A stretch of 64,000 nucleotides of DNA from Candidatus Poribacteria bacterium (GTDB lineage: Bacteria > Poribacteria > WGA-4E > B28-G17), in NCBI GenBank assembly GCA_021162805.1, contig JAGGXZ010000185.1, positions 3,064-67,063 on the forward strand, in the 5' to 3' direction. The notes beneath the pieces are model-generated. The model saw only the letters and a list, made by a program, of their open reading frames with translations, did no database searches and was not told the DNA's origin. Made by a program: the position numbers and the translations under genes. Below, one piece after another: positions 4,104 through 63,838 of this stretch. How positions within the stretch are numbered: the stretch's first letter is position 1; each line of letters starts with the position of its first letter.

Positions 4104-4178
4104 TGGTCATTTGTGGTCATTGGGTCATTTGGCTTCGCCGTCATTTCGAATGACTACAAATGACTATAAATGACAACA
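4104..4178. promoter_or_regulatory. Array of about 7 GTCATTT/AAATGAC heptamer half-sites (three direct, one palindromic GTCATTTCGAATGAC, three inverted)
   Basis: tggtcatttg tggtcatt gggtcattt ... gtcatttcgaatgac tacaaatgac tataaatgac; lies between divergent sigma-54 activator and secreted-protein gene. Confidence 0.4.
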
Positions 4179-4206
4179 AATAACCATCCGCCGAAGGAGG
4201 AGGAAA

Positions 4207-6786: not shown

Positions 6787-7911
6787 TTGAATGAGGACCA
6801 TCTCAACAGATTAAGAAGCATGGCCGAGAAATACGGCGACTTATTGGCAAAGCAAAAGGGTGTATTGGGCGTTGTTATCTCAGGGAGTTTAGCGAGGGGA
6901 GACGTTTGGGAAGGAAGTGATGTGGATCTACATGTTTTATGGAGATCTAAGGGATGTTTCTCCTCCGTGGGTGGGTTTTTGGAAGGCGTGTTGATCAATG
7001 TGCATGATGTATGGGTGGATATGATGGAAGCTATCGTAGAAGATATAGATTGCTTCTGTAGGAGCGATCTACCAGATCAGCTTTATGGATGCAGGATCCT
7101 CTATGACCCTTATGGCTTGTGGAATCGATATAAGGCCTTCATTGATTCCAAGCGATTTGACCCGAAAATCATAGCATGTAAGGTGAGCTGTTACGTCGAG
7201 AAAGCAATGAAATTACTTGCTAAGGCTGAGGAATCTTTCAGATTAAAAGATTGGGCGTCCTCTGTATTCTATGCGCAGAGGGCAGCGATCGAAACTGCTT
7301 TCGGTATCACCGTCAAATGTGGAGATTTGATACGGAGTGCTAATCGGTTCCCCGAAAACTTAAAGGCTCTTACGGAGCGAAATGGATTAGAAGAGCTATA
7401 TAAGCTATTCCGGTCGGTTCACGGATTGACAGGACGGATTGAGGAGGTAGAAAAAGTCATAACTGCCTGTGAAATAGCCCCTAAGAAATTCATCGAGGAA
7501 CTCGATAGGATAGGTATCTCAATGGGAACTGCGAGATGTATTTTGGGAGACAAACCTATCGATGAAGCGCTGAGATATAAGGAGATCTCCGAGTTGCTTA
7601 TCAAAAGAAACCTGCGTTCCTGGGTTGCTGTCAAATACGGTTATTATAATGGACAGATCATATGGATGAGAACCAACAGATGGATGGTAATACCATTATG
7701 GGCTTCACGACTCAGGATGATATGCGGGGCTGATCGAATAAACCTGGATTCATCAACCATTGCAGAGGATATGCGCCGATTTCCCAGGGCTTCGGATGTT
7801 TTTTATAACCTCTTCCTCGATTTTCTCTGCCTATCGAACCCAGAATCTAAGCTTGCCTGGGAGCGAATTCACGCTGTATCTGAAATGATCTCATCGCTTA
7901 GTCATTCGTAA
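6787..7911 (+). CDS. Nucleotidyltransferase-fold protein (pol-beta superfamily NTase domain plus about 250 aa helical C-terminal region)
   Basis: GS-X9-DVD signature GSLARGDVWEGSDVDLHVLW; region visibly more AT-rich than flanks. Confidence 0.55.
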   Translation: MNEDHLNRLRSMAEKYGDLLAKQKGVLGVVISGSLARGDVWEGSDVDLHVLWRSKGCFSSVGGFLEGVLINVHDVWVDMMEAIVEDIDCFCRSDLPDQLYGCRILYDPYGLWNRYKAFIDSKRFDPKIIACKVSCYVEKAMKLLAKAEESFRLKDWASSVFYAQRAAIETAFGITVKCGDLIRSANRFPENLKALTERNGLEELYKLFRSVHGLTGRIEEVEKVITACEIAPKKFIEELDRIGISMGTARCILGDKPIDEALRYKEISELLIKRNLRSWVAVKYGYYNGQIIWMRTNRWMVIPLWASRLRMICGADRINLDSSTIAEDMRRFPRASDVFYNLFLDFLCLSNPESKLAWERIHAVSEMISSLSHS

Positions 7912-20368: not shown

Positions 20369-21728
20369 CCCTTACCTCCTCTATCACCTTTCTCTCCCAA
20401 ACCCCTCTAACGAACAGCAGAAGCGATGCCACCGCTGTGATGAGATTGCTCCAAACCATGGCCATCCACACCCCCGTCACGCCCCACCCCAGGATTCTGC
20501 CGGCCAGATATGCCGATGGAAGCAGGAGCACCCAGAGGTTAAACAGCGACAGACCCATGGAGTAGATCGTATGACCGGAGCCCTGAAACGCCGAGGAAGT
20601 CAACCTAGATACGGCGAATAGGGGTATGGAGAAGGCGATGATGGAGAAAAACCTCGCTCCTAACCTCACCACATCGGGATCGTCGATGAATACCCTGACC
20701 AGATACTGGCGGAGAAGGAGACATAAAATACCTCCAGCCACCATCATCATAAATCCCAGACCGGTGGCCGTCCAGACGGATCTTCTAGCCCTCTTTATCT
20801 GATCCGCCCCGAGGTTCTGTCCTACCATCGTGGCAGTGGCCGCGGCGAGGCCGAAGACGGGCATTCGGAGGATCGAGGTCACCCTGATCCCAACGCCATG
20901 CGCGCTTATCGCCGCCGTGCCGAAAGAGGCTATCACCTTCATCAACATGGTGAAAGCTAAGGCGCTTCCGGAGCTGCCCATCGATGAGGGAATTCCGATC
21001 TTCACGATCTTTTTAACCATGTCCATCCTTAATCTCAGGTGATGGGCGCTCACCTTCACCCCAACTTTCCCGCTGAAAAGAAGGTAGATGGCGGCTATTG
21101 TGGCGACCCCGCGTGAAAAGGCCGTCGCTATTGCCGCCCCGCTCACCTCCATCCTCGGAAAGAACCCCACACCGAATATAAGCAGGGGGTCCAGGATGAT
21201 GTTCAGGATCACGGAGATGGCGCCGAGCTTCATAGGTGTCACCGTATCGCCAACCCCTCTGAGTAAACCGCTGAAGACGAAGAAGCCGAACATGAAAGGG
21301 ACGGAGGCGAACACTATCCTGGAATATGAAACCGCTTTGTCGAAGAGCATCGGCTCAACACCCATCCATCTCATCAAATACGGTATGAGGAGGAATCCTG
21401 CTGTGGCCAGCGAACAGGAGATGATAAGGAGGAAGGCCAGCACCTGACCGGCCGCCCTGTTTGCCCCCTCCCGGTTTCCGGCCCCCGTATGTTGAGCTAC
21501 CAAAGCGGTACCGGCAACACCTATACCGTCACTTAAGGATAACATGAGCCATATGATCGGCCAGCTTATGGTGGGAGCGGCCAGCGCTTCCTTGCTTAGC
21601 TTGCCGAGCCAGAAGGTATCGGCGAGGTTGTAGGCCGTCTGCATCAAGTTTCCTAACACGATGGGCCACATCAACACAAACAGCACTCTGATTATCGATC
21701 CCTTCAGTATCTCCGTTCTCCTATCCAT
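20361..21728 (-). CDS. MATE-family efflux transporter
   Basis: 12-TM protein, MWPIVLGNLMQTAYNLADTFWLGKL motif; start at ATG with GGAGGGGG RBS. Confidence 0.75.
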   Translation of the reverse strand: MDRRTEILKGSIIRVLFVLMWPIVLGNLMQTAYNLADTFWLGKLSKEALAAPTISWPIIWLMLSLSDGIGVAGTALVAQHTGAGNREGANRAAGQVLAFLLIISCSLATAGFLLIPYLMRWMGVEPMLFDKAVSYSRIVFASVPFMFGFFVFSGLLRGVGDTVTPMKLGAISVILNIILDPLLIFGVGFFPRMEVSGAAIATAFSRGVATIAAIYLLFSGKVGVKVSAHHLRLRMDMVKKIVKIGIPSSMGSSGSALAFTMLMKVIASFGTAAISAHGVGIRVTSILRMPVFGLAAATATMVGQNLGADQIKRARRSVWTATGLGFMMMVAGGILCLLLRQYLVRVFIDDPDVVRLGARFFSIIAFSIPLFAVSRLTSSAFQGSGHTIYSMGLSLFNLWVLLLPSAYLAGRILGWGVTGVWMAMVWSNLITAVASLLLFVRGVWERKVIEEVRDV

Positions 21729-25765: not shown

Positions 25766-25785
25766 TCGCTCATATTTTTCGGTGA

Positions 25786-25819
25786 GTGTAGCAGAGAGCT
25801 GAATGGATAACCGCTACAC
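25786..25819. repeat. Miniature copy of intergenic repeat (GTGTAGCAGAGAGCTGAATGGATAACCGCTACAC)
   Basis: Carries both termini (GTGTAGC...GCTACAC) of the larger repeats at 40642 and 56185. Confidence 0.4.
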
Positions 25820-25844
25820 TGAGAATTTGAGTGAACCCAATTCC

Positions 25845-33105: not shown

Positions 33106-33893
33106 TGCTTAGAAGAATCCTGAGTGCTTTCCTGTTCGTTCCGATCATCCTCGCTTTATCCCTTCATCCGATTTCGTTTACGGCCCTTTCGTGTGTCATA
33201 ACCGTTATGATCTATCTGGAGTTTGTAAGGATAGGTCGAAACCTGGGGGTATGGTTTCCAGAACCCATTGGTGTGTTGACCGTGGGGATAATGCCGATAC
33301 TGGCCTATCTCAGTCTGAACCCTATGCCCTTCCTGATCGGGGCGATCCTGTTGATCTCTCTTTTCAATGTGGTCCATCGAAAGGGTGAAGGAGCTCTGCT
33401 TTCGCTTTCCTCTGCCGTTTTCGGCCTCATATACATCGGCTGGATGTATGGGTTTCACCTGGTGGAGCTCAGGATGATGGATGAAGGGCTGAAACTCATA
33501 TTGTTGCTTTTGGCCGTGATATGGCTGGGGGACACGGGAGCGTATTTCACTGGCAGGGCGATCGGCAGACATAAGCTCATCCCTGCCGTTAGCCCTGGCA
33601 AGACGATCGAGGGATCGATAGGCGGTCTGATATGGGGGATGGGAGGGGCAGTGGCGGTTAAATACATCTTCAACTTAGACCTGCTGTCGCTTCCCCATCT
33701 TATCTCTCTCAGCTTGGTGATGGGGATAACAGGGCAGATAGGGGATCTGACGGAATCCATCATAAAGAGAAACGCGGGGATAAAGGATTCGGGAAACCTC
33801 ATTCCGGGACACGGCGGCATGTTCGATCGATGCGACAGCATGATCCCGGCCGTTCCCGTTATGATTATCTACCTGAGGATGTTTCAAGCATGA
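33105..33893 (+). CDS. cdsA: Phosphatidate cytidylyltransferase
   Basis: LGDTGAYFTGRAIGRHKL...PGKTIEGSIGG motif; ATGA overlap with uppS stop. Confidence 0.8.
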   Translation: MLRRILSAFLFVPIILALSLHPISFTALSCVITVMIYLEFVRIGRNLGVWFPEPIGVLTVGIMPILAYLSLNPMPFLIGAILLISLFNVVHRKGEGALLSLSSAVFGLIYIGWMYGFHLVELRMMDEGLKLILLLLAVIWLGDTGAYFTGRAIGRHKLIPAVSPGKTIEGSIGGLIWGMGGAVAVKYIFNLDLLSLPHLISLSLVMGITGQIGDLTESIIKRNAGIKDSGNLIPGHGGMFDRCDSMIPAVPVMIIYLRMFQA

Positions 33894-34741
33894 GCGTTAT
33901 GATGAAAACCTTTCATAAGATCTATATCGGCAACTCCCGAAAAATGACGGAAGTTCCTGATCAATTCGTTCACTGTGTGGTAACCAGTCCACCCTACGTA
34001 ACTACCAAGATGGAAAAGGGGCAGGAGTTCGATTATAACTCATATCGGGATATGATCCGCGATGTCTTTCAGGAGGTATGGCGAGTTCTGATACCAGATG
34101 GGCGATTTTGTCTCAATGTAGCCGACATCCGGACGAAATATTTCTATAAGGAAAATAATCTCTATCGAGCGCCTATATCCAGTGACCTCCTGATGCTCTG
34201 TCACGAGATCGGATTTCGGCTGCTCGATGTCTTCATCTGGGATAAGGGATTTAACCGGAACTTCGGCGGACCGCTTTTAGGTTCTTATCTCTATCCGGCT
34301 ACAATCTATAATAACGTCTACTTTGAATATATCTTCATCTTGAAAAAGCCCGGCAAACGTCAGGTTGATCCGGCAATTAAAGAGGCCAGCAGGATTGACA
34401 AGCACACCTGGAAGGAGTATGTTCAGCGCATCTGGCGCGTGGAAACGGAGACGGAATGGTTTGAAGGTCACGAGGCGGTTTTCCCTGAGGAGATACCCAG
34501 AAGGCTAATTCGCATGTATTCCTTCGTGGGCGATACGATCCTTGACCCTTTCCTGGGATCGGGGACGACGACGCTAGCTGCTATGAACTTAGGTCGTAAC
34601 AGCATAGGTTATGAAATCAACGAAAAGCTGATACCGGTGATCAAAAGAAGATTAGGAATAGATCAACCCCTTTTGATAACCGGAGGAGCTGAGATCGAGA
34701 TTACATTTGCGAGATATCGAGACCGCGAGGTTATGGAGTGA
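33890..34741 (+). CDS. DNA methyltransferase, N4-cytosine/N6-adenine (beta-class, PF01555-like)
   Basis: VVTSPPY motif IV near N-terminus, FxGxG-like motif near C-terminus (DPFLGSGTT); start overlaps cdsA stop (ATGA). Confidence 0.7.
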   Translation: MSVMMKTFHKIYIGNSRKMTEVPDQFVHCVVTSPPYVTTKMEKGQEFDYNSYRDMIRDVFQEVWRVLIPDGRFCLNVADIRTKYFYKENNLYRAPISSDLLMLCHEIGFRLLDVFIWDKGFNRNFGGPLLGSYLYPATIYNNVYFEYIFILKKPGKRQVDPAIKEASRIDKHTWKEYVQRIWRVETETEWFEGHEAVFPEEIPRRLIRMYSFVGDTILDPFLGSGTTTLAAMNLGRNSIGYEINEKLIPVIKRRLGIDQPLLITGGAEIEITFARYRDREVME

Positions 34742-34745
34742 TTCC

Positions 34746-35594
34746 ATGTCAGATCGAATAACGTTGGAAGAATTGCTTGAGCAGATCGAGCGAATCCCCG
34801 CAGAGTGGTTAAACGACATAGGACGCAAGGTTATCGATGCCATTCCTAAAATAATCGGACGAATAAACCGTTCTCCGTTGGACCAATCGACTATTACGAC
34901 GCTATTAGAGGAAGAGACTTACGCATTGGATGTCTTTCGACTATTCTTGGATCTCTCTCAGGACGCCATCGCTAATGAGATTAACGCCAGGGGGATCAGA
35001 GGAGACTTCGCCTCAATCCGAAGCAAATGTAGCCGTCATGCTGACGAGATCGCAGAAGCACTCGTAGCCTTGGGATTGATAGACACGATAGAAGCCCATC
35101 GAGCTCGCGATTGGAAACTGCAAGATATTTTACTGGAACGCTATAAACACATGCGCGGCCATGCTATTCGTGGCCAACGGCGAGGCGCTGCCATTGAAGA
35201 TGCTGTAGAGGATATTCTTAAGGGTCTCCAACATGAGATCGGTATATCTTATGACTCCAAAGCGAATTTCATCAGTAGATTCGGCGAAGAGGCTAAAGCT
35301 GATTTTATGATTCCCTCTCGTTTTGAACCTCAAATCATAATTGAAGTAAAAGGGTATGAAGCAACGGGTAGCAAGCTTACCGACGTGCTTGGGGATATCC
35401 TCAAGATATTGAAGGCTAAAGATCCGGAAACGCATTTCTTCCTCGTGACTGACGGAATCGGGTGGTATCGACAATTAAGCGACCTGCGTCACATCGTAGC
35501 GTATCATCATAGTGGAGAAATTGAGATGATCTACACGAGAAAAACGCTTTTAAATTTGAAAGATAGAATCAGACAGATTATCAAAGGGGAATGA
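34746..35594 (+). CDS. Putative type II restriction endonuclease (PD-(D/E)XK nuclease) partner of the methyltransferase
   Basis: C-terminal ADFMIPSRFEPQIIIEVKG fits D-Xn-E-V-K; positioned directly after MTase, stop overlaps dxr ATG. Confidence 0.4.
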   Translation: MSDRITLEELLEQIERIPAEWLNDIGRKVIDAIPKIIGRINRSPLDQSTITTLLEEETYALDVFRLFLDLSQDAIANEINARGIRGDFASIRSKCSRHADEIAEALVALGLIDTIEAHRARDWKLQDILLERYKHMRGHAIRGQRRGAAIEDAVEDILKGLQHEIGISYDSKANFISRFGEEAKADFMIPSRFEPQIIIEVKGYEATGSKLTDVLGDILKILKAKDPETHFFLVTDGIGWYRQLSDLRHIVAYHHSGEIEMIYTRKTLLNLKDRIRQIIKGE

Positions 35595-36751: not shown

Positions 36752-38077
36752 ATGGTATGGCTTTCTAACCTTTACGTATTCGTCGTGGCCGTTATATCGC
36801 TCGGGTTCATAATCTTCATCCATGAGCTCGGCCACTTTATAGCCGCCAAGCGATCGGGCGTTAAGGTCGAGAGGTTCTCGCTCGGATTCGGCCCGAGGCT
36901 GTTTGGATTGGTAAGGGATGGGACAGACTATTGCATCTCGCTTCTGCCTTTCGGCGGATACGTCAAGATGAAGGGCGAAGGGCCGGGCAAGGACATGAAG
37001 GTGAACGAGGATCCGGATTCCTTCGCGGCAGCCTCCATCGGTAAACGCATGTTCATAGCCATCTCCGGACCGGCCATGAACGTGCTGCTCGGGATATTGG
37101 CCTTTTCGCTCGTCTATATGATCGGCATGCCTCAGACGAACCAGAGCACGCAGATAGGATACGTCCTACCTGATTCCCCGGCCGAAAAAGCAGGGCTTAG
37201 ACCCGGGGATGTGATACTCGCCATAAATGGCGAGAAAACCTCAAGCTGGGATGAAGTCAGGGAGAATATCCTCGTCCATCCAGGGGAGGAGATAACTTTA
37301 AAGGTGCGCCGTGGGGAAAAAGTGCTCACCCTCAGGGCTGTCCCAGAGGAGTTTAAGCAGGAGAAGATGGGCAAGGTGGGTAAATTGGGGATCGTCCAGG
37401 TGATAGATCCGGTCGTCCGAAAGGTTCAGCCTGGAAGCCCCGCCTCCGAGCTCGGCATCCGGCCCGGAGACAGGATCATCTCCGTCAACGGAAGGCCTAT
37501 CACACATTTCATGGAGATCATCACTGAGGCCGAGAGAAACCCAAGTGAACCGATCAGGCTCGGGGTTGAGCGAGATGGAAGGAGGTTCACCGTAAGCCTG
37601 AAGCTGGAATTCGACGAGAACGGAGAGGTAAAGGATCTGGGAGGGATGTTCTTCGGAAGCGAGATCAAGCTGATCAGATATGATCCCATACGTGCGATCG
37701 GCGCGGGGATCAAACAGAGCGTCCTGACGGTGGATAAAACACTTGTCGTGCTGAAAAAACTTATACTACATGAGATCTCACCCAGATATGTAAGCGGTCC
37801 GCTTGGGATCATCGAGATAACCGCCAGCGTTTTCAGAGTTGGGTTTTCAGGATTCCTCTTCGTATTGGGATTCATAAGCATCAACATCGCCATCATTAAC
37901 CTCCTCCCTATCCCCATAGCCGACGGCGGACAGATCCTCTTCTTCGCCGTTGAGAAGGTGAGAGGCAAACCGCTCAGCCCCAAGAAGCAGCTCATCATAC
38001 AGCAGGCCAGCATATTGTTCCTTATAATCCTGTTCATCCTCGTCACGTGGAACGACATCCTCAGGATGATAAGCTGA
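36752..38077 (+). CDS. rseP: RIP metalloprotease RseP (site-2 protease) with PDZ domains
   Basis: HELGHFIAAK zinc motif, two PDZ-like segments, C-terminal LDG motif region. Confidence 0.85.
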   Translation: MVWLSNLYVFVVAVISLGFIIFIHELGHFIAAKRSGVKVERFSLGFGPRLFGLVRDGTDYCISLLPFGGYVKMKGEGPGKDMKVNEDPDSFAAASIGKRMFIAISGPAMNVLLGILAFSLVYMIGMPQTNQSTQIGYVLPDSPAEKAGLRPGDVILAINGEKTSSWDEVRENILVHPGEEITLKVRRGEKVLTLRAVPEEFKQEKMGKVGKLGIVQVIDPVVRKVQPGSPASELGIRPGDRIISVNGRPITHFMEIITEAERNPSEPIRLGVERDGRRFTVSLKLEFDENGEVKDLGGMFFGSEIKLIRYDPIRAIGAGIKQSVLTVDKTLVVLKKLILHEISPRYVSGPLGIIEITASVFRVGFSGFLFVLGFISINIAIINLLPIPIADGGQILFFAVEKVRGKPLSPKKQLIIQQASILFLIILFILVTWNDILRMIS

Positions 38078-38255: not shown

Positions 38256-39023
38256 ATGAAGCTCGGTATCGTCACGTATAACATAGCCAAAGATTGGGAT
38301 CTGGAGACGATCCTGAAGGTCTGTCAGACCGTTGGGTTGGAAGGGGTAGAGTTGAGGACTACCCACGCTCATGGCGTCGAGGTGACGTTGTCCTCCGAGG
38401 AACGACGGAAGGTCAGGAAGATGTTCGAGGATTCGCCAGTGGAGCTGGCCGGGTTGGGAAGCGCTTTCGAATATCATTCGCCCGATCCGGATGAGTTGAA
38501 ACGGAACATCGAGGGGACAAAGGAATATGTCAAGCTCGCCGCCGATGTCGGGGCGCCGGGCGTGAAGGTCAGACCGAACAATCTGCCCGATGGCGTGCCG
38601 ATCGAGAAAACTCTGGAACAGATCGGCCTTGCTCTGAGGGAAGTGGGGGAATTCGCCGCCGATTACGGCGTTCAGATAAGACTCGAGGTTCACGGAAGAG
38701 GTACCTCCCATATCCCCTATATAAGAAGGATACTCGACGTGGCGGATCACGATAACGTGCTTGTATGCTGGAACTCAAACAGAACCGATATCGCCGAGGA
38801 TGGAACTATAAAGCCGAACTTCGATCTGGTAAAGGGTAGGATCGGTCTGGTGCATATAAACGAGCTTTACTCCGATTATCCGTGGAAGGAACTGTTCAAG
38901 CTGCTCAAGGAATCAGGGTATCAGGGATTTACCCTGGCGGAGATACCGGGATGTCCGGATGTGGATAGCGCTATCAGGCTGTTGAGGTATTACAAAGCTC
39001 TGTGGCAGGAACTTCAGGAATAG
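38256..39023 (+). CDS. Sugar phosphate isomerase/epimerase (xylose-isomerase-like TIM barrel)
   Basis: MKLGIVTYNIAKDWDLETILKVCQTVGLEGVEL; RBS ggaaggagg. Confidence 0.6.
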   Translation: MKLGIVTYNIAKDWDLETILKVCQTVGLEGVELRTTHAHGVEVTLSSEERRKVRKMFEDSPVELAGLGSAFEYHSPDPDELKRNIEGTKEYVKLAADVGAPGVKVRPNNLPDGVPIEKTLEQIGLALREVGEFAADYGVQIRLEVHGRGTSHIPYIRRILDVADHDNVLVCWNSNRTDIAEDGTIKPNFDLVKGRIGLVHINELYSDYPWKELFKLLKESGYQGFTLAEIPGCPDVDSAIRLLRYYKALWQELQE

Positions 39024-39101
39024 GAGATAGAGAGGAGCCAGGAGCTAGCTGTAACTCCGAATTTCTTTTGTTCCTGGTTCCTCTCCCCTCGTTACCATCG
39101 A

Positions 39102-40526
<1,425 letters not shown>

Positions 40527-40641
40527 TTCAACCTACCTCCTCGCTTAAATCTCCGATATCAACATCAATTTCTATTTACGAACTTCACGTTCGACCGGTT
40601 GACCATACCTTTAGAATACGCTCATATTATCGCTAAGTTAA

Positions 40642-40870
40642 GTGTAGCAGAGATCTGAGAGGTCAGAAGTGCTTATTTCTCAGGGCAAAAAGGAACAAGG
40701 AACTAGGAGCGAGGAACGAGGATTTTCATCTCCTCGTTCCTAGTTCCTTTCTCCTCGTTCCTCCTCATGGATAACCGCTACACCCAGGGAAATAAGAGCG
40801 AATTGCTTAACTCTCACTTACGCCCTACGCAGTACGTCTCTTTCCTCTCCTTGTCACCCTGTCTCCCCTA
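40642..40870. repeat. Modular intergenic repeat copy A (GTGTAGCAGAGATCTGAGAGGTCAGAA ... imperfect hairpin GGAACTAGGAGCGAGGAACGAGGA/TCCTCGTTCCTAGTTCC ... CTCCTCGTTCCTCCTCATGGATAACCGCTACAC ... CT-rich tail GTCTCTTTCCTCTCCTTGTCACCCTGTCTCCCC)
   Basis: Blocks of 25-35 nt identical to copy at 56185..56377; lies between hsp20 3' end and htrA 5' end. Confidence 0.45.
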
Positions 40871-41210
40871 CTTCTTCAATCGGTATCTCCCTCGGTTTAG
40901 CCTGCTCTTTCTTGGGCAGGGTCAGCTCCAGCACGCCGTCGACCAACTTAGCTTTTATACTGCTTGTATCTATCTCATCTGAAAGGGTGAAGGCCCTGTG
41001 GTAATCCCCCTCTCTTGGGCACTCATTTAGAAGGAACTTCCCCTCTTCGCTCTCTTTGAGATGTCCGATTATCTCCAGATCGTTGCCTTCGACTCTTATC
41101 TCCACATCCTCCTTTTTAACGCCGGGCATTTCGGCCCAAAGCAGTATCTTATCATCGGTCTCGCAGATATCGACCGGCGCATAAAGCCTTTTTTCGGTCA
41201 TCTTACTCAC
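40854..41210 (-). CDS. Hsp20/alpha-crystallin family small heat-shock protein
   Basis: alpha-crystallin domain AEMPGVKKEDVEIRVEGNDLEI. Confidence 0.8.
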   Translation of the reverse strand: MSKMTEKRLYAPVDICETDDKILLWAEMPGVKKEDVEIRVEGNDLEIIGHLKESEEGKFLLNECPREGDYHRAFTLSDEIDTSSIKAKLVDGVLELTLPKKEQAKPREIPIEEVGETG

Positions 41211-54656: not shown

Positions 54657-56117
54657 GTGATGAGGATGAAAGCCCCAGCCCTGGGTTTGCTGATCCTATT
54701 GTTAGCCGTTTCGATCTCACAGGCGGACTGGTCGATCGGTTATGAATTCAGATATGACTATGACGATGTGTATTCGAACATGATCGGCCGCGAGCACCGG
54801 GACGGCGCGGAAGTAGATGACTGGATAGAACGCGGCAGTGCAACCATAACGGCAAGTCCCATCTTCCCCGATGGCGTCAGGCTTACGGGATGGTCGACCG
54901 ATTTCGAGACGGAAGGGGAAGGAGATTTCGACTTCAGCCTCGCAAGCGCAATCTACTACTTCCACATCCCGCGTGGAACCCAATATATAAAGATCAAGGT
55001 CTACTATCGAGGTGAAGGAGGAAGGGTTGAATTCGACGGCACAGATGAGATCGCCGGAAGAGTCTGGATCAGAAACTACGAGCGGGAGAGGCTCAGGCGA
55101 AAATATGAGGAGGATGACACGCTATATGGCGATACCTTTCTCCTGAGAGCCAACAGACGATCCGAAACGATAAGGATACCGGCAGCCGAACATGTGAACG
55201 ATGGCGTGATGGAGATGCATATAGTGGTGGATGATGGGATGATGCTGGACGTAGACTATATCGTCGTCGAATCCTATAGATGGCTGCCGGAGGTTAAGGT
55301 GATCAACAGATACTACAGGGTTTATGAGTGGAAACCGTGGTATTACTACACTTACATTTACTTCTACGATGGCCCTTGCTACTATCTGACCGACTACGGA
55401 TACTACATCAGATGGATATATCCGGCGTATGACAGGTTCTACCTCAGCATCAGATTCAGATATGGAGATTACCTGCGCAGATACTACGCTATGTATCCTA
55501 GATATTACTGGTATCGTAGATGGAGCGAGATATATTACGACGATCCAAAAGCGCGGGTCAGAATTCACGCCGGAGGGGTCAGGGCTAGGATCAGACCATG
55601 GACGCCGGAGGACGAGAGGATAAGAAAGGAGTACATAATCGTCAGAAGATCCCCCGATAGGGAGAGAAACAGGATAGCTGAGGTGCGAAACAGGATAAGG
55701 GAGACGATAACGCGCTATAGAATCCGTGAAGGACAAAGCTCAGCAAGTCGCACGCGGATAAGAACCACACATCCCACCGATTCACGGTATCGGACCAGGA
55801 CATCGATCAGGTGGTCCAGAACGACTCCCAGCACCACACATATAATCGTCCCCAGAACTGAAGTTAGAATAAGAAGCCGCTCTCAGGAGAGCAGATCCTC
55901 ACCTCCTTCATCCGCCCGTACTCGAAGCTCATCGATCCGATCCCGCATATCAACACGGAGAAGCGAACCGCCCAGAAACTCTCGATCTCAGGCAAGCAGC
56001 AGCCGTAACAGGGAGGAAGAGGAAAAGAAAAAAGATGAGGACGAGGATAAAGATAAGGATAAAAAGGATGAGGGAAGCTCAAGGCGGGATAGGATCAGAT
56101 CGAGAATAAGGAGGTGA
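54657..56117 (+). CDS. Secreted protein with globular N-terminal half and extreme low-complexity C-terminal half (Tyr/Arg/Trp-rich, then Arg/Ser/Thr-rich, then Lys/Asp/Glu-rich)
   Basis: Signal peptide MMRMKAPALGLLILLLAVSISQA; RBS gggaggtga; WKPWYYYTYIYFYDGPCYYLTDYGYYIRW..., ...RSRSQESRSSPPSSARTRSSSIRSRISTRRS..., EEEEKKKDEDEDKDKDKKDE. Confidence 0.45.
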   Translation: MMRMKAPALGLLILLLAVSISQADWSIGYEFRYDYDDVYSNMIGREHRDGAEVDDWIERGSATITASPIFPDGVRLTGWSTDFETEGEGDFDFSLASAIYYFHIPRGTQYIKIKVYYRGEGGRVEFDGTDEIAGRVWIRNYERERLRRKYEEDDTLYGDTFLLRANRRSETIRIPAAEHVNDGVMEMHIVVDDGMMLDVDYIVVESYRWLPEVKVINRYYRVYEWKPWYYYTYIYFYDGPCYYLTDYGYYIRWIYPAYDRFYLSIRFRYGDYLRRYYAMYPRYYWYRRWSEIYYDDPKARVRIHAGGVRARIRPWTPEDERIRKEYIIVRRSPDRERNRIAEVRNRIRETITRYRIREGQSSASRTRIRTTHPTDSRYRTRTSIRWSRTTPSTTHIIVPRTEVRIRSRSQESRSSPPSSARTRSSSIRSRISTRRSEPPRNSRSQASSSRNREEEEKKKDEDEDKDKDKKDEGSSRRDRIRSRIRR

Positions 56118-56184
56118 AATATGACAAGGGGACGGGGAGAGGGGGAGACCAGGGGAATTCTCCCTCGCTCATAATTATCGTTAA

Positions 56185-56377
56185 GTGTAGCAGAGATCTG
56201 AGAGGTCAGAAAACGTTACAACGTTAAACGTTGAACGTGCAACGGATTCCCCTTCTCCTCGTTCCTCCTCATAGATAACCGTATACGTCTCTTTCCTCTC
56301 CTTGTCCCCTTGTCTCCTTGTCACCCTGTCTCCCCTGTTTCCTGCCTCCTGTCTCCTATCGGTGATAACCGCTACAC
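56185..56377. repeat. Modular intergenic repeat copy B (shares GTGTAGCAGAGATCTGAGAGGTCAGAA, CTCCTCGTTCCTCCTCAT-GATAACCG, GTCTCTTTCCTCTCCTTGTC..TGTCTCC and terminal GATAACCGCTACAC with copy A; unique AACGTT x4 insert)
   Basis: Direct comparison with 40642..40870; between convergent gene ends. Confidence 0.45.
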
Positions 56378-56415
56378 TCAAAGGGAATTTGAACGCAATG
56401 ATAATATGGGCGATT

Positions 56416-61133: not shown

Positions 61134-61206
61134 AAGCGGGCAACGGGATTCGAACCCGCGACCCTCAGCTTGGGAAGCTGACGCTCTACCACTGAGCTAT
61201 GCCCGC
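61134..61206 (-). tRNA. tRNA-Gly (anticodon CCC)
   Basis: Cloverleaf folds by hand: acceptor GCGGGCA/TGCCCGC, D-stem GCTC/GAGC, anticodon stem TCAGC/GCTGA with loop TTCCCAA, T-arm GCGGG-TTCGAAT-CCCGT; no encoded CCA. Confidence 0.8.
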
Positions 61207-61258: not shown

Positions 61259-61373
61259 TGAACATCTGAGGGCAGGGCTTTTCAATGATTGTATGATTTA
61301 GTATACCATCACAGAAGCCACCAGAAAACGAGGTGATTCAGGTGACAAACCAAGACCTGCTTCATGGGGGATT

Positions 61374-61915
61374 GTGATTGGACGCAAGACTCCAGACACA
61401 AGATTCCAGAGAGGTGAGGAATCATTGAAGCAGCCGCACCCTTTAGGGTGCGTTAAATCGCAGGCTAAAGCCTGCGGCTACGGGGATTGCGCTAAAGCGT
61501 TGAAAACCCCTAGATGCGGGGCATGGAAGATGAAAAATCTGATCCAATCATGGCAAAACTACCTTCTCACACAGGGGGATTGGGAAGTCAGGAGGTATGG
61601 CGGATACACACCCCCGGCTGCCGATATAACAGCATTCTTCAGGCCAAAGCTGAAAGGGAAGATAGGCAAGTTCTTCCATCACATAGCAAACAAAGCCATG
61701 AGGGGGATAGGAATTGGCCTTATTGTGATGGTGGTAGAGGTTGAAGGGAGGAGGATACCTCTCATCAGAGAGATACTGCCTGCAGAAGGTGATATGAGCC
61801 AGGCTCAGCTGAAGGAGAAGCTTCTCACTTTGGTCTCATCCTCAGAACTTTGTTGTGTTTGGACACCTTGCTGTTACCTCCTTGAAGTTGCCACGCCGAG
61901 CATGTGCTGTGGTTG
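61374..61915 (+). CDS. Hypothetical ORF inside element, beginning within the left inverted repeat (possible remnant of a transposition protein)
   Basis: Only the non-overlapping 5' part of track ORF 61374..62063; no family recognised. Confidence 0.2.
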
Positions 61916-63244: not shown

Positions 63245-63838
63245 ATCGATTCACCCCCTCTTTATGTGCTGTCAGATATTTTTTCATCGGCGCAATTATA
63301 CAACAAAAGTTGGTTCTTCGCCATAAATTGTGATAAAAGGTCAAGCTTGAAAAGCAACTGGGAACCGCCTATACTCTCTTTAGGTTGCAAAACCACGAGA
63401 GGAGGCGAGTTCCCAGATGCGAAACAATTGTATCACAATTTCGCTTGATTTGCGACAGGCCTATGGGTATCGTGACTTTGAGCATTTCCGACTCCGAATC
63501 CTGACCCTGGCAGCGTAAGCCATCTCAGTGCACACTTGAGACTCGGCCTAGGTCATATCTCCCCTATGATGCGGATCTTGGCCGGCATCAGACACAAGAC
63601 CCTAGACTCAAGATTCTCACAACCAACTTCTAACCTCTGGGTCTTGATTCGTCATACCAATCTGGAGTCTTGTGTTCAGAGTCTTGTATCTGATCGCAAT
63701 CCCCCATGAAGCGGGTCTTGGTTTGTCACCTGAATCACCTCGCTTCCTGATTGAAAAGCCCTACTACAAATCCTTGACGGTGTGAGGAAGGCTGTGTTAA
63801 GATTAGTGGCGGAAAAATTTCGTCTCGGCGGTGTCAAC

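What the first reader, a model, noticed from the sequence alone, without database searches (positions are those of the whole stretch)
40642..40870. Modular intergenic repeat family (three copies) with GTGTAGC...GCTACAC termini, internal GGAAC-rich hairpin and CT-rich tail
Copies at 40642..40870 and 56185..56377 share several 25-35 nt identical blocks: GTGTAGCAGAGATCTGAGAGGTCAGAA, CTCCTCGTTCCTCCTCAT(G/A)GATAACCG, GTCTCTTTCCTCTCCTTGTC(A/C)CC(C/T)TGTCTCC and a terminal GATAACCGCTACAC. They differ by inserted modules: copy A has an imperfect 17-bp-stem hairpin rich in GGAAC, copy B has four tandem AACGTT units. A 34-bp miniature at 25786..25819 contains just the two ends. The ends are inverted complements (GTGTAGC / GCTACAC), as expected for a MITE-like element or a structured RNA. 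GGAAC and CGTCTC motifs also resemble ECF-sigma -35/-10 elements. Copy A lies directly upstream of htrA, a classic envelope-stress gene.
Basis: seen in the sequence. Interest (0 to 1): 0.55.

Follow-up and report, generated by a model that had tools for sequence, protein, structure and literature searches.

The report
Worn copies of a bacterial MITE
The three look-alike intergenic stretches are decayed copies of a small non-coding "jumping DNA" element (a MITE) that is scattered through this uncultured Poribacteria-labelled bacterium and its close relatives; this is an ordinary kind of genome parasite, not an envelope-stress promoter.

Summary
The repeats are real: three copies, all on the + strand, far above chance. 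GCTACACTCAAGGGAAATAAGAGCG). True extents are 40619-40800, 56166-56395 and 25767-25833.

The same element occurs at least 20 times in one related MAG (GCA_964535855.1) and on 95 metagenome contigs. Among 48 distinct insertion sites there, 24 carry a perfect 8-bp, AT-rich target-site duplication and 5 more match at 7 of 8 (control flanks: none). All 48 sites are intergenic. This is a MITE family with a modal length of 179 nt.

The "modules" are subfamilies that differ in a central hairpin built from 7-8-nt tandem units.
- Copy A is a full GGAACGA-type element.
- Copy B is a chimera of two subfamilies.
- Copy C is an internal-deletion miniature.
- The CT-rich "tail" next to A is a fragment of a fourth element and supplies the last six codons and the stop of hsp20.

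None of the window copies keeps a duplication, so they look like fossils. The ECF-promoter reading fails: no GGAAC-N14-19-CGTC occurs in any copy. A conserved GTCAACC-N15-TCGTA motif lies outside the element, next to htrA. No autonomous transposase was found. This is a new member of a known kind and of modest interest.

The parts
40619..40800 (+). Copy A: full-length (182 nt) MITE of the GGAACGA-hairpin (G2) subfamily, lying between hsp20 and htrA (both on the minus strand).
   Evidence: 169/177 identity to the 178-nt element on L029. nhmmer full-element profile E=3e-43. Folds to -74.6 kcal/mol, z=-6.2. No target-site duplication: flanks are TTAGAATA / AATTGCTT.
40619..40648 (+). Left terminal inverted repeat of copy A (CGCTCATATTATCGCTAAG-TTAAG-TGTAGC), with a 5-nt insertion relative to the 25-nt family consensus.
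   Evidence: The related MAG has the same ATCGCTAAG variant at the same junction.
40691..40762 (+). Central hairpin of copy A. The arms are 4-5 tandem 7-nt units (AAGGAAC / TCCTCGT).
   Evidence: Inverted repeat I2 with 32-nt arms, 81% complementary. TRF period 7. The minus-strand RNA fold is -47.9 kcal/mol and ends in a U-rich stretch.
40777..40800 (+). Right terminal inverted repeat of copy A (GCTACACCCAGGGAAATAAGAGCG).
40820..40874 (+). The 'CT-rich tail': an internal fragment of a ~261-nt family member, outside copy A. Its reverse complement encodes the last 6 codons and the stop of hsp20 (EVGETG*).
   Evidence: 55/56 identity to positions 137-163 and 180-208 of the 262-nt element on L049, with one 16-nt gap. 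Hsp20 ends IEEVGETG* here, but IEVEV* or IEVE* in three relatives.
56166..56395 (+). Copy B: a 230-nt chimera. The left 116 nt (56166-56281) come from the AACGTT-array subfamily. The right ~113 nt (56283-56395) come from the 261-nt subfamily. It lies between convergent genes.
   Evidence: 110/115 identity to the 139-nt element on L093. A continuous 97-nt block aligns to L049. Weak fold, z=-1.2. The element is present at the orthologous locus of the related MAG (L010, 88% nucleotide identity in the flank). No target-site duplication.
56121..56160 (+). GA-rich stretch just left of copy B (GACAAGGGGAC...), complementary to the CT-rich units inside B (GTCCCCTTGTC at 56304). It is possibly the orphan arm of an older hairpin cassette.
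   Evidence: Conserved in L010. The assignment is an inference.
25767..25833 (+). Copy C: a 67-nt miniature made of little more than the two terminal repeats. It fills almost the whole spacer upstream of the UPF0182 gene.
   Evidence: Similar minis of 56 and 96 nt exist in relatives. A 93%-identical relative (L127) and a 73% relative (L128) have unrelated spacers with no element.
40577..40603 (-). Context, not part of the element: a conserved promoter-like motif GTCAACC-N15-TCGTA. It starts 15 nt outside the left end of copy A and lies about 50 nt upstream of the htrA start.
   Evidence: GTCAACCGGT and TTCGTA are invariant in four lineages down to 64% HtrA identity, while the rest of the spacer is not. 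Unique in the window; 0.02 expected by chance. Its function is inferred.

Best explanation
These are copies of a non-autonomous DNA transposon, a MITE.

Anatomy of the element:
- It is about 180 nt long and non-coding.
- It is bounded by 25-nt imperfect terminal inverted repeats: CGCTCATATTATCGTTAAGTGTAGC on the left, and the reverse complement of CGCTCTTATTTCCCTTGAGTGTAGC on the right.
- It has a conserved ~45-nt left subterminal segment.
- It has a central hairpin whose arms are tandem 7-8-nt units.

Inferred mechanism: a transposase supplied in trans binds the terminal repeats. It integrates the element at AT-rich intergenic sites with an 8-bp staggered cut, which leaves 8-bp target-site duplications.

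Subfamilies keep the ends but carry different central hairpins. Copies then recombine, nest and delete. That history produces the 'modular' look.

The three copies in this window are old and probably immobile. None keeps a duplication. A has an indel in its left repeat, B is a chimera of two subfamilies, and C has lost its interior.

Their local effects are incidental. A fragment next to A rewrote the 3' end of hsp20. A itself sits 15 nt upstream of the likely htrA promoter and places a strong hairpin between hsp20 and htrA.
For: Shown:
1. The family is multi-copy and lineage-restricted. Of 23 genome-collection hits to a 17-nt 5' probe, 20 fall in one MAG with 90% HtrA identity to the window (GCA_964535855.1). 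The other 3 are lone hits in unrelated taxa. A further 95 metagenome contigs carry the terminal repeat.
2. Sixty-one elements have both ends, with a modal length of 179 nt. Another 32 are cut by contig ends, and one Logan contig from the window's own strain breaks inside copy A, as expected for a dispersed repeat.
3. Of 48 distinct sites, 24 have perfect 8/8 flanking duplications and 5 have 7/8. The adjacent control octamers give none at 7 or more. The duplicated octamers all differ and are 76% A+T.
4. All 48 sites are intergenic.
5. Presence varies between close relatives. Copy C is absent at 93% protein identity. The hsp20-htrA spacer has no such element at 77% and 64% HtrA identity, but has one at 90%.
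6. There is no coding capacity and no Rfam family.
7. The canonical copy folds as a long rod closed by the terminal repeats (-89.1 kcal/mol, z=-10.6).

Inferred: mobilisation by a DDE-type transposase, immobility of the window copies, and the effects on neighbouring genes.
Against: - No autonomous element with these ends was found in the window, the 20 MAG loci, the 95 metagenome contigs or the viral collection. The transposase family is therefore unknown.
- No clean filled/empty pair of the same site was recovered.
- The three window copies have no target-site duplication, so mobility is shown for the family, not for these copies.
- The wholesale replacement of the central hairpin between copies that share the same ends, even at an orthologous site (GGAACGA-type in the window, GGAGACA-type in the MAG), is not explained by simple transposition.
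Confidence: 0.9

Rival explanations
1. A family of structured small RNA genes or cis-regulatory RNA elements. Each copy would be transcribed, and the GTGTAGC/GCTACAC stem and inner hairpin would be the functional fold.
For: Copy A and the canonical element fold much better than shuffles (z=-6.2 and -10.6). A sigma-70-like TTGACC-18-CATATT match reads into copy A, with its -10 hexamer inside the terminal repeat.
Against: - 8-bp target-site duplications flank half of the sites, which RNA genes do not create.
- The central hairpin is replaced by unrelated sequences between copies rather than maintained by compensatory changes.
- Copy B does not fold better than shuffles (z=-1.2).
- There is no Rfam match above threshold.
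- The -35 of the promoter-like match lies in unique flank DNA, so it is not a family feature.
Confidence: 0.04
2. An ECF-sigma (envelope-stress) promoter or operator module that controls htrA, with GGAAC as -35 and CGTCTC as -10.
For: Copy A lies between two hsp20 genes and htrA, and an RseP-type site-2 protease gene is about 1 kb beyond htrA. GGAAC motifs are abundant in copy A.
Against: - No GGAAC-N14-19-CGTC occurs in any copy on either strand. The window's three matches lie elsewhere and are at chance level.
- GGAAC is the repeat unit of one hairpin subfamily found at many unrelated loci.
- The other two window copies flank unrelated genes.
- The MAG ortholog has a GGAGACA hairpin at the same place, and more distant relatives have no element.
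- The conserved AAC...CGT-type motif lies outside the element.
Confidence: 0.03
3. A REPIN/REP-like or other palindrome-associated element, moved by an HUH (RAYT or IS200/IS605-type) single-strand transposase rather than by a cut-and-paste DDE enzyme.
For: The inner terminal repeat contains GTAG/CTAC, and the whole element is a long hairpin. Stand-alone hairpin cassettes without terminal repeats also exist in these genomes, some with a GCGAAGC apex that I recall forms a very stable DNA mini-hairpin.
Against: From general knowledge, HUH-mediated insertion does not create target-site duplications. Here 24 of 48 sites have perfect 8-bp duplications of differing sequence. No RAYT gene was seen, although none was searched for systematically.
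Confidence: 0.03
4. The element is a MITE by origin, but copy A has been co-opted. Its hairpin would serve as the 3'-end or terminator structure of the hsp20 operon, insulating it from the htrA promoter. This is compatible with the best explanation and adds a function.
For: - On the minus (sense) strand the hairpin is -47.9 kcal/mol and runs into UUCCUUUUUG.
- The GC-rich inverted repeat that follows the hsp20 stop in the 77% and 64% relatives is missing in the window and in the MAG, where the element abuts or nearly abuts hsp20.
- From general knowledge, bacterial MITEs are known to carry promoters and terminators. MITEAba12 has outward-facing promoters (PMC6382973).
Against: The consensus scan calls no minus-strand terminator here. 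It also does not call the relatives' GC hairpins as terminators. No expression data are available. The MAG ortholog carries a different hairpin.
Confidence: 0.3

Closest known systems
Bacterial MITEs derived from insertion sequences, e.g. MITEAba12 of Acinetobacter (PMC6382973)
   Same: Both are short and non-coding, with terminal inverted repeats, AT-rich intergenic targets and fixed-length target-site duplications on only part of the copies. MITEAba12 has duplications on 40% of 90 copies; here 50% of 48 sites are perfect. Both vary in copy number between related genomes.
   Different: - MITEAba12 is 113 bp with 9-bp duplications, is highly uniform, and has an identified parent (ISAba12).
- This family is about 180 nt with 8-bp duplications and 25-nt repeats of unrelated sequence.
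- No parent was found here.
- The central hairpin here is unusually variable.
Correia elements (CREE) of Neisseria
   Same: From my own knowledge: about 100-155 bp, 26-bp terminal inverted repeats, hundreds of intergenic copies, internal-deletion size classes, and effects on neighbouring genes through promoters, terminators and RNA hairpins.
   Different: Correia elements duplicate a TA dinucleotide, not 8 bp. There is no sequence similarity. This point is recalled, not tested here.
BOX elements of Streptococcus pneumoniae and BIMEs of enterobacteria (mosaic intergenic repeats)
   Same: Modular build: conserved end modules with a variable middle, formation of long hairpins, and intergenic location (my own knowledge).
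   Different: As I recall, those elements have no terminal-repeat plus target-site-duplication signature. Here the modularity sits inside a bona fide transposon frame.
ISL3-family insertion sequences as a candidate parent
   Same: As I recall, ISL3 elements make 8-bp AT-rich duplications, and many have 15-39-bp repeats beginning GGCTCTT. The right end here reads CGCTCTTATTTCC, and the duplications are 8 bp and 76% A+T.
   Different: No ISL3 (or any other) transposase with these ends was found. Several other IS families also make 8-bp duplications. This is a lead from memory, not a test.

Membership tests
MITE (miniature inverted-repeat transposable element) | Short (<~600 bp) with no coding capacity | tested here: met
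   56-263 nt, mode 179 nt. Only short chance ORFs cross the copies.
MITE (miniature inverted-repeat transposable element) | Terminal inverted repeats | tested here: met
   25-nt ends CGCTCATATTATCGTTAAGTGTAGC and CGCTCTTATTTCCCTTGAGTGTAGC (about 20/25 identical) are conserved across copies, while the flanks differ.
MITE (miniature inverted-repeat transposable element) | Target-site duplications of fixed length | tested here: met
   For the family: 24 of 48 sites are perfect at 8 bp and 5 are 7/8; control octamers give 0 at 7 or more. Not met by the three window copies themselves.
MITE (miniature inverted-repeat transposable element) | Many dispersed copies in a genome | tested here: met
   At least 20 in one fragmented MAG, 95 metagenome contigs, and 3 copies plus 1 fragment in this 64-kb window.
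MITE (miniature inverted-repeat transposable element) | Insertion polymorphism between related genomes | tested here: met
   Copy C is absent from a 93%-identical relative. The hsp20-htrA element is absent at 77% and 64% HtrA identity and present at 90%. No exact filled/empty pair was recovered.
MITE (miniature inverted-repeat transposable element) | A related autonomous IS with matching ends that supplies the transposase | tested here: inconclusive
   None in the held sequence. The MAGs are fragmented, and collection scans were capped.
ISL3-derived MITE | 8-bp AT-rich duplications | tested here: met
   The feature is not specific to ISL3.
ISL3-derived MITE | An ISL3 (DDE_Tnp_ISL3) transposase gene bounded by the same terminal repeats | tested here: inconclusive
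   No transposase gene was seen next to any terminal repeat in about 0.5 Mb of related loci.
ECF-sigma promoter | GGAAC-like -35 and CGTC-like -10 at 16-17-nt spacing, oriented toward the regulated gene | tested here: not met
   No GGAAC-N14-19-CGTC in any copy. The conserved GTCAACC-N15-TCGTA lies outside the element.
Structured small RNA family | Fold maintained by compensatory changes, plus own promoter and terminator | tested here: not met
   The central hairpin is exchanged for unrelated sequences. No Rfam family matches. No shared promoter or terminator. Transcription itself is not testable here.
REPIN / RAYT-mobilised palindromic element | No target-site duplication; an associated RAYT gene | tested here: not met
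   8-bp duplications are present at half of the sites. No systematic RAYT search was made.

The most novel reading that the evidence does not exclude
The transposon frame may act as a carrier for a second layer of mobile or self-generating DNA. At least eight kinds of 'hairpin cassette' exist, each an array of 3-5 tandem 7-9-nt units followed by the inverted array. The units include GGAGACA, GGAACGA, TTCGAAAT, AACGTT, GTCATTT, GGTTAAG, GGGGACAA and GCGTAAT.

These cassettes are exchanged between copies that share identical ends. One of them (TTCGAAAT) appears with the same boundaries inside two different host hairpins. Some also occur alone next to genes, for example at window 4104-4181.

If the cassettes are an independent class of loop-targeting palindromic elements, or are arrays of protein-binding sites, that would be a new kind of nested mobile DNA.
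Probability: 0.12. Interest if true: 0.55.

Novelty: new member of a known kind. Interest (0 to 1): 0.25.

Why it matters
It mainly matters for annotation. These elements break assemblies, create spurious small ORFs, mimic promoters and RNA hairpins, and here rewrote the last codons of an hsp20 gene.

It documents active or recently active MITE proliferation in a Poribacteria-labelled lineage. No such element turned up in the searched literature.

It also flags a conserved ECF-like motif as the real candidate htrA promoter. The interchangeable tandem-unit hairpins are a small unexplained curiosity and worth a look in a closed genome.

Tried and rejected
- **Rfam.** Gathering threshold on the whole window and E-value mode on 40500-40900 gave only a tRNA and sub-threshold miRNA-hairpin noise.
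- **Search for an autonomous IS.** I checked loci where one end had no partner (L006, L022, L059 and 21 others). All are truncated or diverged copies next to ordinary genes. A viral-contig scan gave 0 hits. blastn against plasmids gave no match.
- **The 94-nt inverted repeat pair at 61322-61415 / 63656-63749.** I checked it as a possible IS. It encloses a secreted-protein gene, not a transposase.
- **Empty-site search.** Joined flanks searched against all held loci gave only self-hits.
- **Possible ECF sigma gene near 7570.** A shared ...KEISELL-coding repeat suggested one. The ORF is a 374-aa unrelated protein.
- **TIR-like 20/25 match at 21525-21549 (minus strand).** It lies in a stretch with no other element features and gives a weak profile hit only (E=0.005), so I treated it as chance.
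- **Literature.** No paper combines Poribacteria with MITE terms. Searches for ISL3 end sequences were unproductive.
- **Terminator scan.** It did not call the relatives' GC hairpins downstream of hsp20, so the idea that the MITE replaced a terminator stays weak.
- **A first fuzzy-regex scan** timed out and was replaced by local alignment.

Full report
**Observation.** The 5' block GTGTAGCAGAGATCTGA occurs at 25786, 40642 and 56185. The 3' block GATAACCGCTACAC occurs at 25806, 40770 and 56364. All are on the + strand, and no shuffle out of 100 reaches three matches for either block. The repeat finders confirm the hairpin in copy A (32-nt arms, 81% complementary), 7-nt tandem units in both of its arms, the AACGTT array in copy B, and the 94%-identical CT-rich block. 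The stated limits are off. In copy A the GATAACCGCTACAC block ends at 40783, and the CT-rich block lies 50 nt further on.

**True boundaries and family size.** The sequence upstream of GTGTAGC (CGCTCATATTATCG...) and downstream of GCTACAC (...GGGAAATAAGAGCG) is also shared between copies and is itself an inverted repeat. A genome-collection scan with a 17-nt 5' probe gave 23 hits. Twenty fall in a single MAG (CAZHVH01 = GCA_964535855.1), and three are lone hits in unrelated taxa. A metagenome scan with a degenerate 25-nt end pattern gave 95 contigs. In these sequences the similarity stops sharply at CGCTC... on the left and ...GAGCG on the right. Sixty-one elements have both ends (56-263 nt, mode 179). 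Thirty-two are cut by contig ends. A Logan contig of the window's own strain also ends inside copy A. A profile built from 32 full elements finds exactly three end-bearing copies in the window: 40619-40800, 56166-56395 and 25767-25831.

**Evidence for transposition.**
- Of 48 distinct insertion sites with both flanks, 24 have identical 8-bp sequences directly abutting the two ends, and 5 more match at 7 of 8. The next octamers outward give none at 7 or more.
- The duplicated octamers all differ and are 76% A+T.
- All 48 sites are intergenic, often within tens of nucleotides of gene ends.
- This is the signature of cut-and-paste or replicative insertion with an 8-bp staggered cut. The family is therefore a MITE.
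- No transposase gene with these ends was found in any held sequence, so the enzyme family is unknown.
- An ISL3-type parent is my best guess, from recalled features (8-bp AT-rich duplications, ends like GGCTCTT). It remains untested.

**Why the copies look modular.** Copies share the ends and a ~45-nt left subterminal segment, but they differ in the central hairpin.
- A GGAGACA-type hairpin occurs at 28 sites.
- A GGAACGA-type hairpin occurs at 8 sites.
- Rarer types are built from AACGTT, TTCGAAAT, GTCATTT, GGTTAAG, GGGGACAA or GCGTAAT units.
- There is also a 261-nt type, and there are minis of 56-96 nt.

The window copies map onto these types as follows.
- Copy A is a complete GGAACGA-type element (169/177 identity to L029), with a 5-nt insertion in its left repeat.
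- Copy B is a chimera. Its first 116 nt match the 139-nt AACGTT type (110/115). Its last ~113 nt match the right part of the 261-nt type.
- Copy C is an internal-deletion miniature.
- The 'tail' at 40820-40874 matches the interior of the 261-nt type (55/56, with one two-unit gap). It is a fragment of a further element, not part of copy A.
- None of the window copies retains a target-site duplication, so I regard them as fossils.

**Host and comparative context.** NCBI labels the window's HtrA 'Candidatus Poribacteria bacterium'. The same strain occurs in several metagenome assemblies with an identical hsp20-htrA spacer. The orthologous spacers compare as follows.
- Relatives at 64% and 77% HtrA identity have no such element. 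There hsp20 ends ...IEVE* and is followed by a GC-rich inverted repeat.
- The MAG at 90% identity has an element at the same left junction, with the same ATCGCTAAG variant of the repeat. It carries a GGAGACA hairpin, however, and has lost its right end, so it abuts the hsp20 stop (IEVEV*).
- In the window the hairpin is of the GGAACGA type, and hsp20 ends IEEVGETG*. The last six codons and the stop come from the element fragment.
- One resident insertion has therefore had its interior replaced, presumably by recombination with other copies.

Copy B is present at the orthologous MAG locus. Copy C is absent from relatives at 93% and 73% identity.

**Promoter question.** The ECF idea fails on spacing and strand: no GGAAC-N14-19-CGTC occurs in any copy. 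Aligning the four htrA upstream regions shows an invariant GTCAACCGGT-N11-TTCGTA. It is unique in the window, at 40577-40603 on the minus strand, and starts 15 nt outside the left end of copy A. Its AAC...CGT layout resembles ECF-type promoters as I recall them. This motif, not the MITE, is the candidate stress promoter (inference). A sigma-70-like match reading into copy A uses flank DNA for its -35 and is not a family feature.

**Structure and possible side effects.** Copy A and the canonical element fold as rods closed by the terminal repeats (-74.6 kcal/mol, z=-6.2; -89.1, z=-10.6). The chimeric copy B does not fold better than shuffles (z=-1.2). On the sense strand of hsp20 and htrA, the copy A hairpin (-47.9 kcal/mol) runs into a U-rich stretch. 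It could therefore end hsp20 transcripts. The consensus scans support neither this nor a terminator role for the relatives' GC hairpins. I give the co-option idea about 0.3.

**Comparison and novelty.** The family behaves like IS-derived bacterial MITEs such as MITEAba12 (113 bp, 9-bp duplications on 40% of copies, AT-rich targets; PMC6382973). From memory, it also behaves like the Correia elements. It shares no sequence with annotated plasmids or Rfam families. No paper in the library links Poribacteria and MITEs. It is a new member of a known kind.

**Unexplained feature.** The one unusual point is the set of interchangeable tandem-unit hairpins. The TTCGAAAT cassette has the same boundaries inside both GGAGACA and GGAACGA hosts. 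GTCATTT-type hairpins occur mostly without terminal repeats (6 of 10), including one at window 4104-4181. I cannot explain this, and I list it as the most novel reading that remains open.

Noticed in passing
window 4104-4181: A stand-alone hairpin made of three GGTCATTTG-like units, a GGCTTCGCC apex and three AAATGACTA-like units, about 27 nt upstream of a start codon. The same cassette occurs alone in relatives (L018, L095, L122, L125) and inside MITEs with the same ends (L076, L094, L101, L113). On the other strand the apex reads GCGAAGC, which I recall as a very stable DNA mini-hairpin.
   Followed up: partly
window 40577-40603 (minus strand): A conserved GTCAACC-N15-TCGTA motif upstream of htrA, invariant in four lineages down to 64% HtrA identity. 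It is the candidate ECF-type promoter. An RseP-like site-2 protease gene lies about 1 kb beyond htrA (36752-38077).
   Followed up: partly
window 40854-40874 (hsp20 3' end): The last six codons and the stop of the second hsp20 gene are encoded by a MITE fragment (IEEVGETG* versus IEVE* in relatives).
   Followed up: yes
window 39020-39101: A GGAGCCAGGA / TCCTGGTTCC hairpin between the convergent sugar-isomerase-like gene and htrA. It gives a weak profile hit to the MITE central hairpin but has no terminal repeats. It could be a cassette relic or a native terminator.
   Followed up: no
window 61322-61415 and 63656-63749: A 94-nt inverted repeat pair (85% complementary) brackets a 442-aa secreted-protein gene beside tRNA-Gly(CCC) at 61135-61206. 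There is no transposase. Its nature is unknown.
   Followed up: partly
window ~33890-35594 (L001 14933-16637): A DpnII-type restriction enzyme and an N6/N4 methyltransferase sit between dxr and cdsA, in a stretch of lower G+C (0.477). Another assembly with the identical HtrA (L003) has different genes after dxr and a split RseP, so this is strain-level variation.
   Followed up: no
L021 (MAG contig CAZHVH010000033): A full element is nested in the left repeat of a miniature copy, with a 12-bp rather than 8-bp flanking repeat. L054 joins the left flank of one insertion to the right flank of another, which indicates either recombination or an assembly chimera.
   Followed up: no
window 54657-56117: A 486-aa ORF upstream of copy B with a Tyr/Arg-rich middle and a long Arg/Ser/Glu/Lys low-complexity tail. 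It is 88% identical at the nucleotide level in the related MAG (L010).
   Followed up: no
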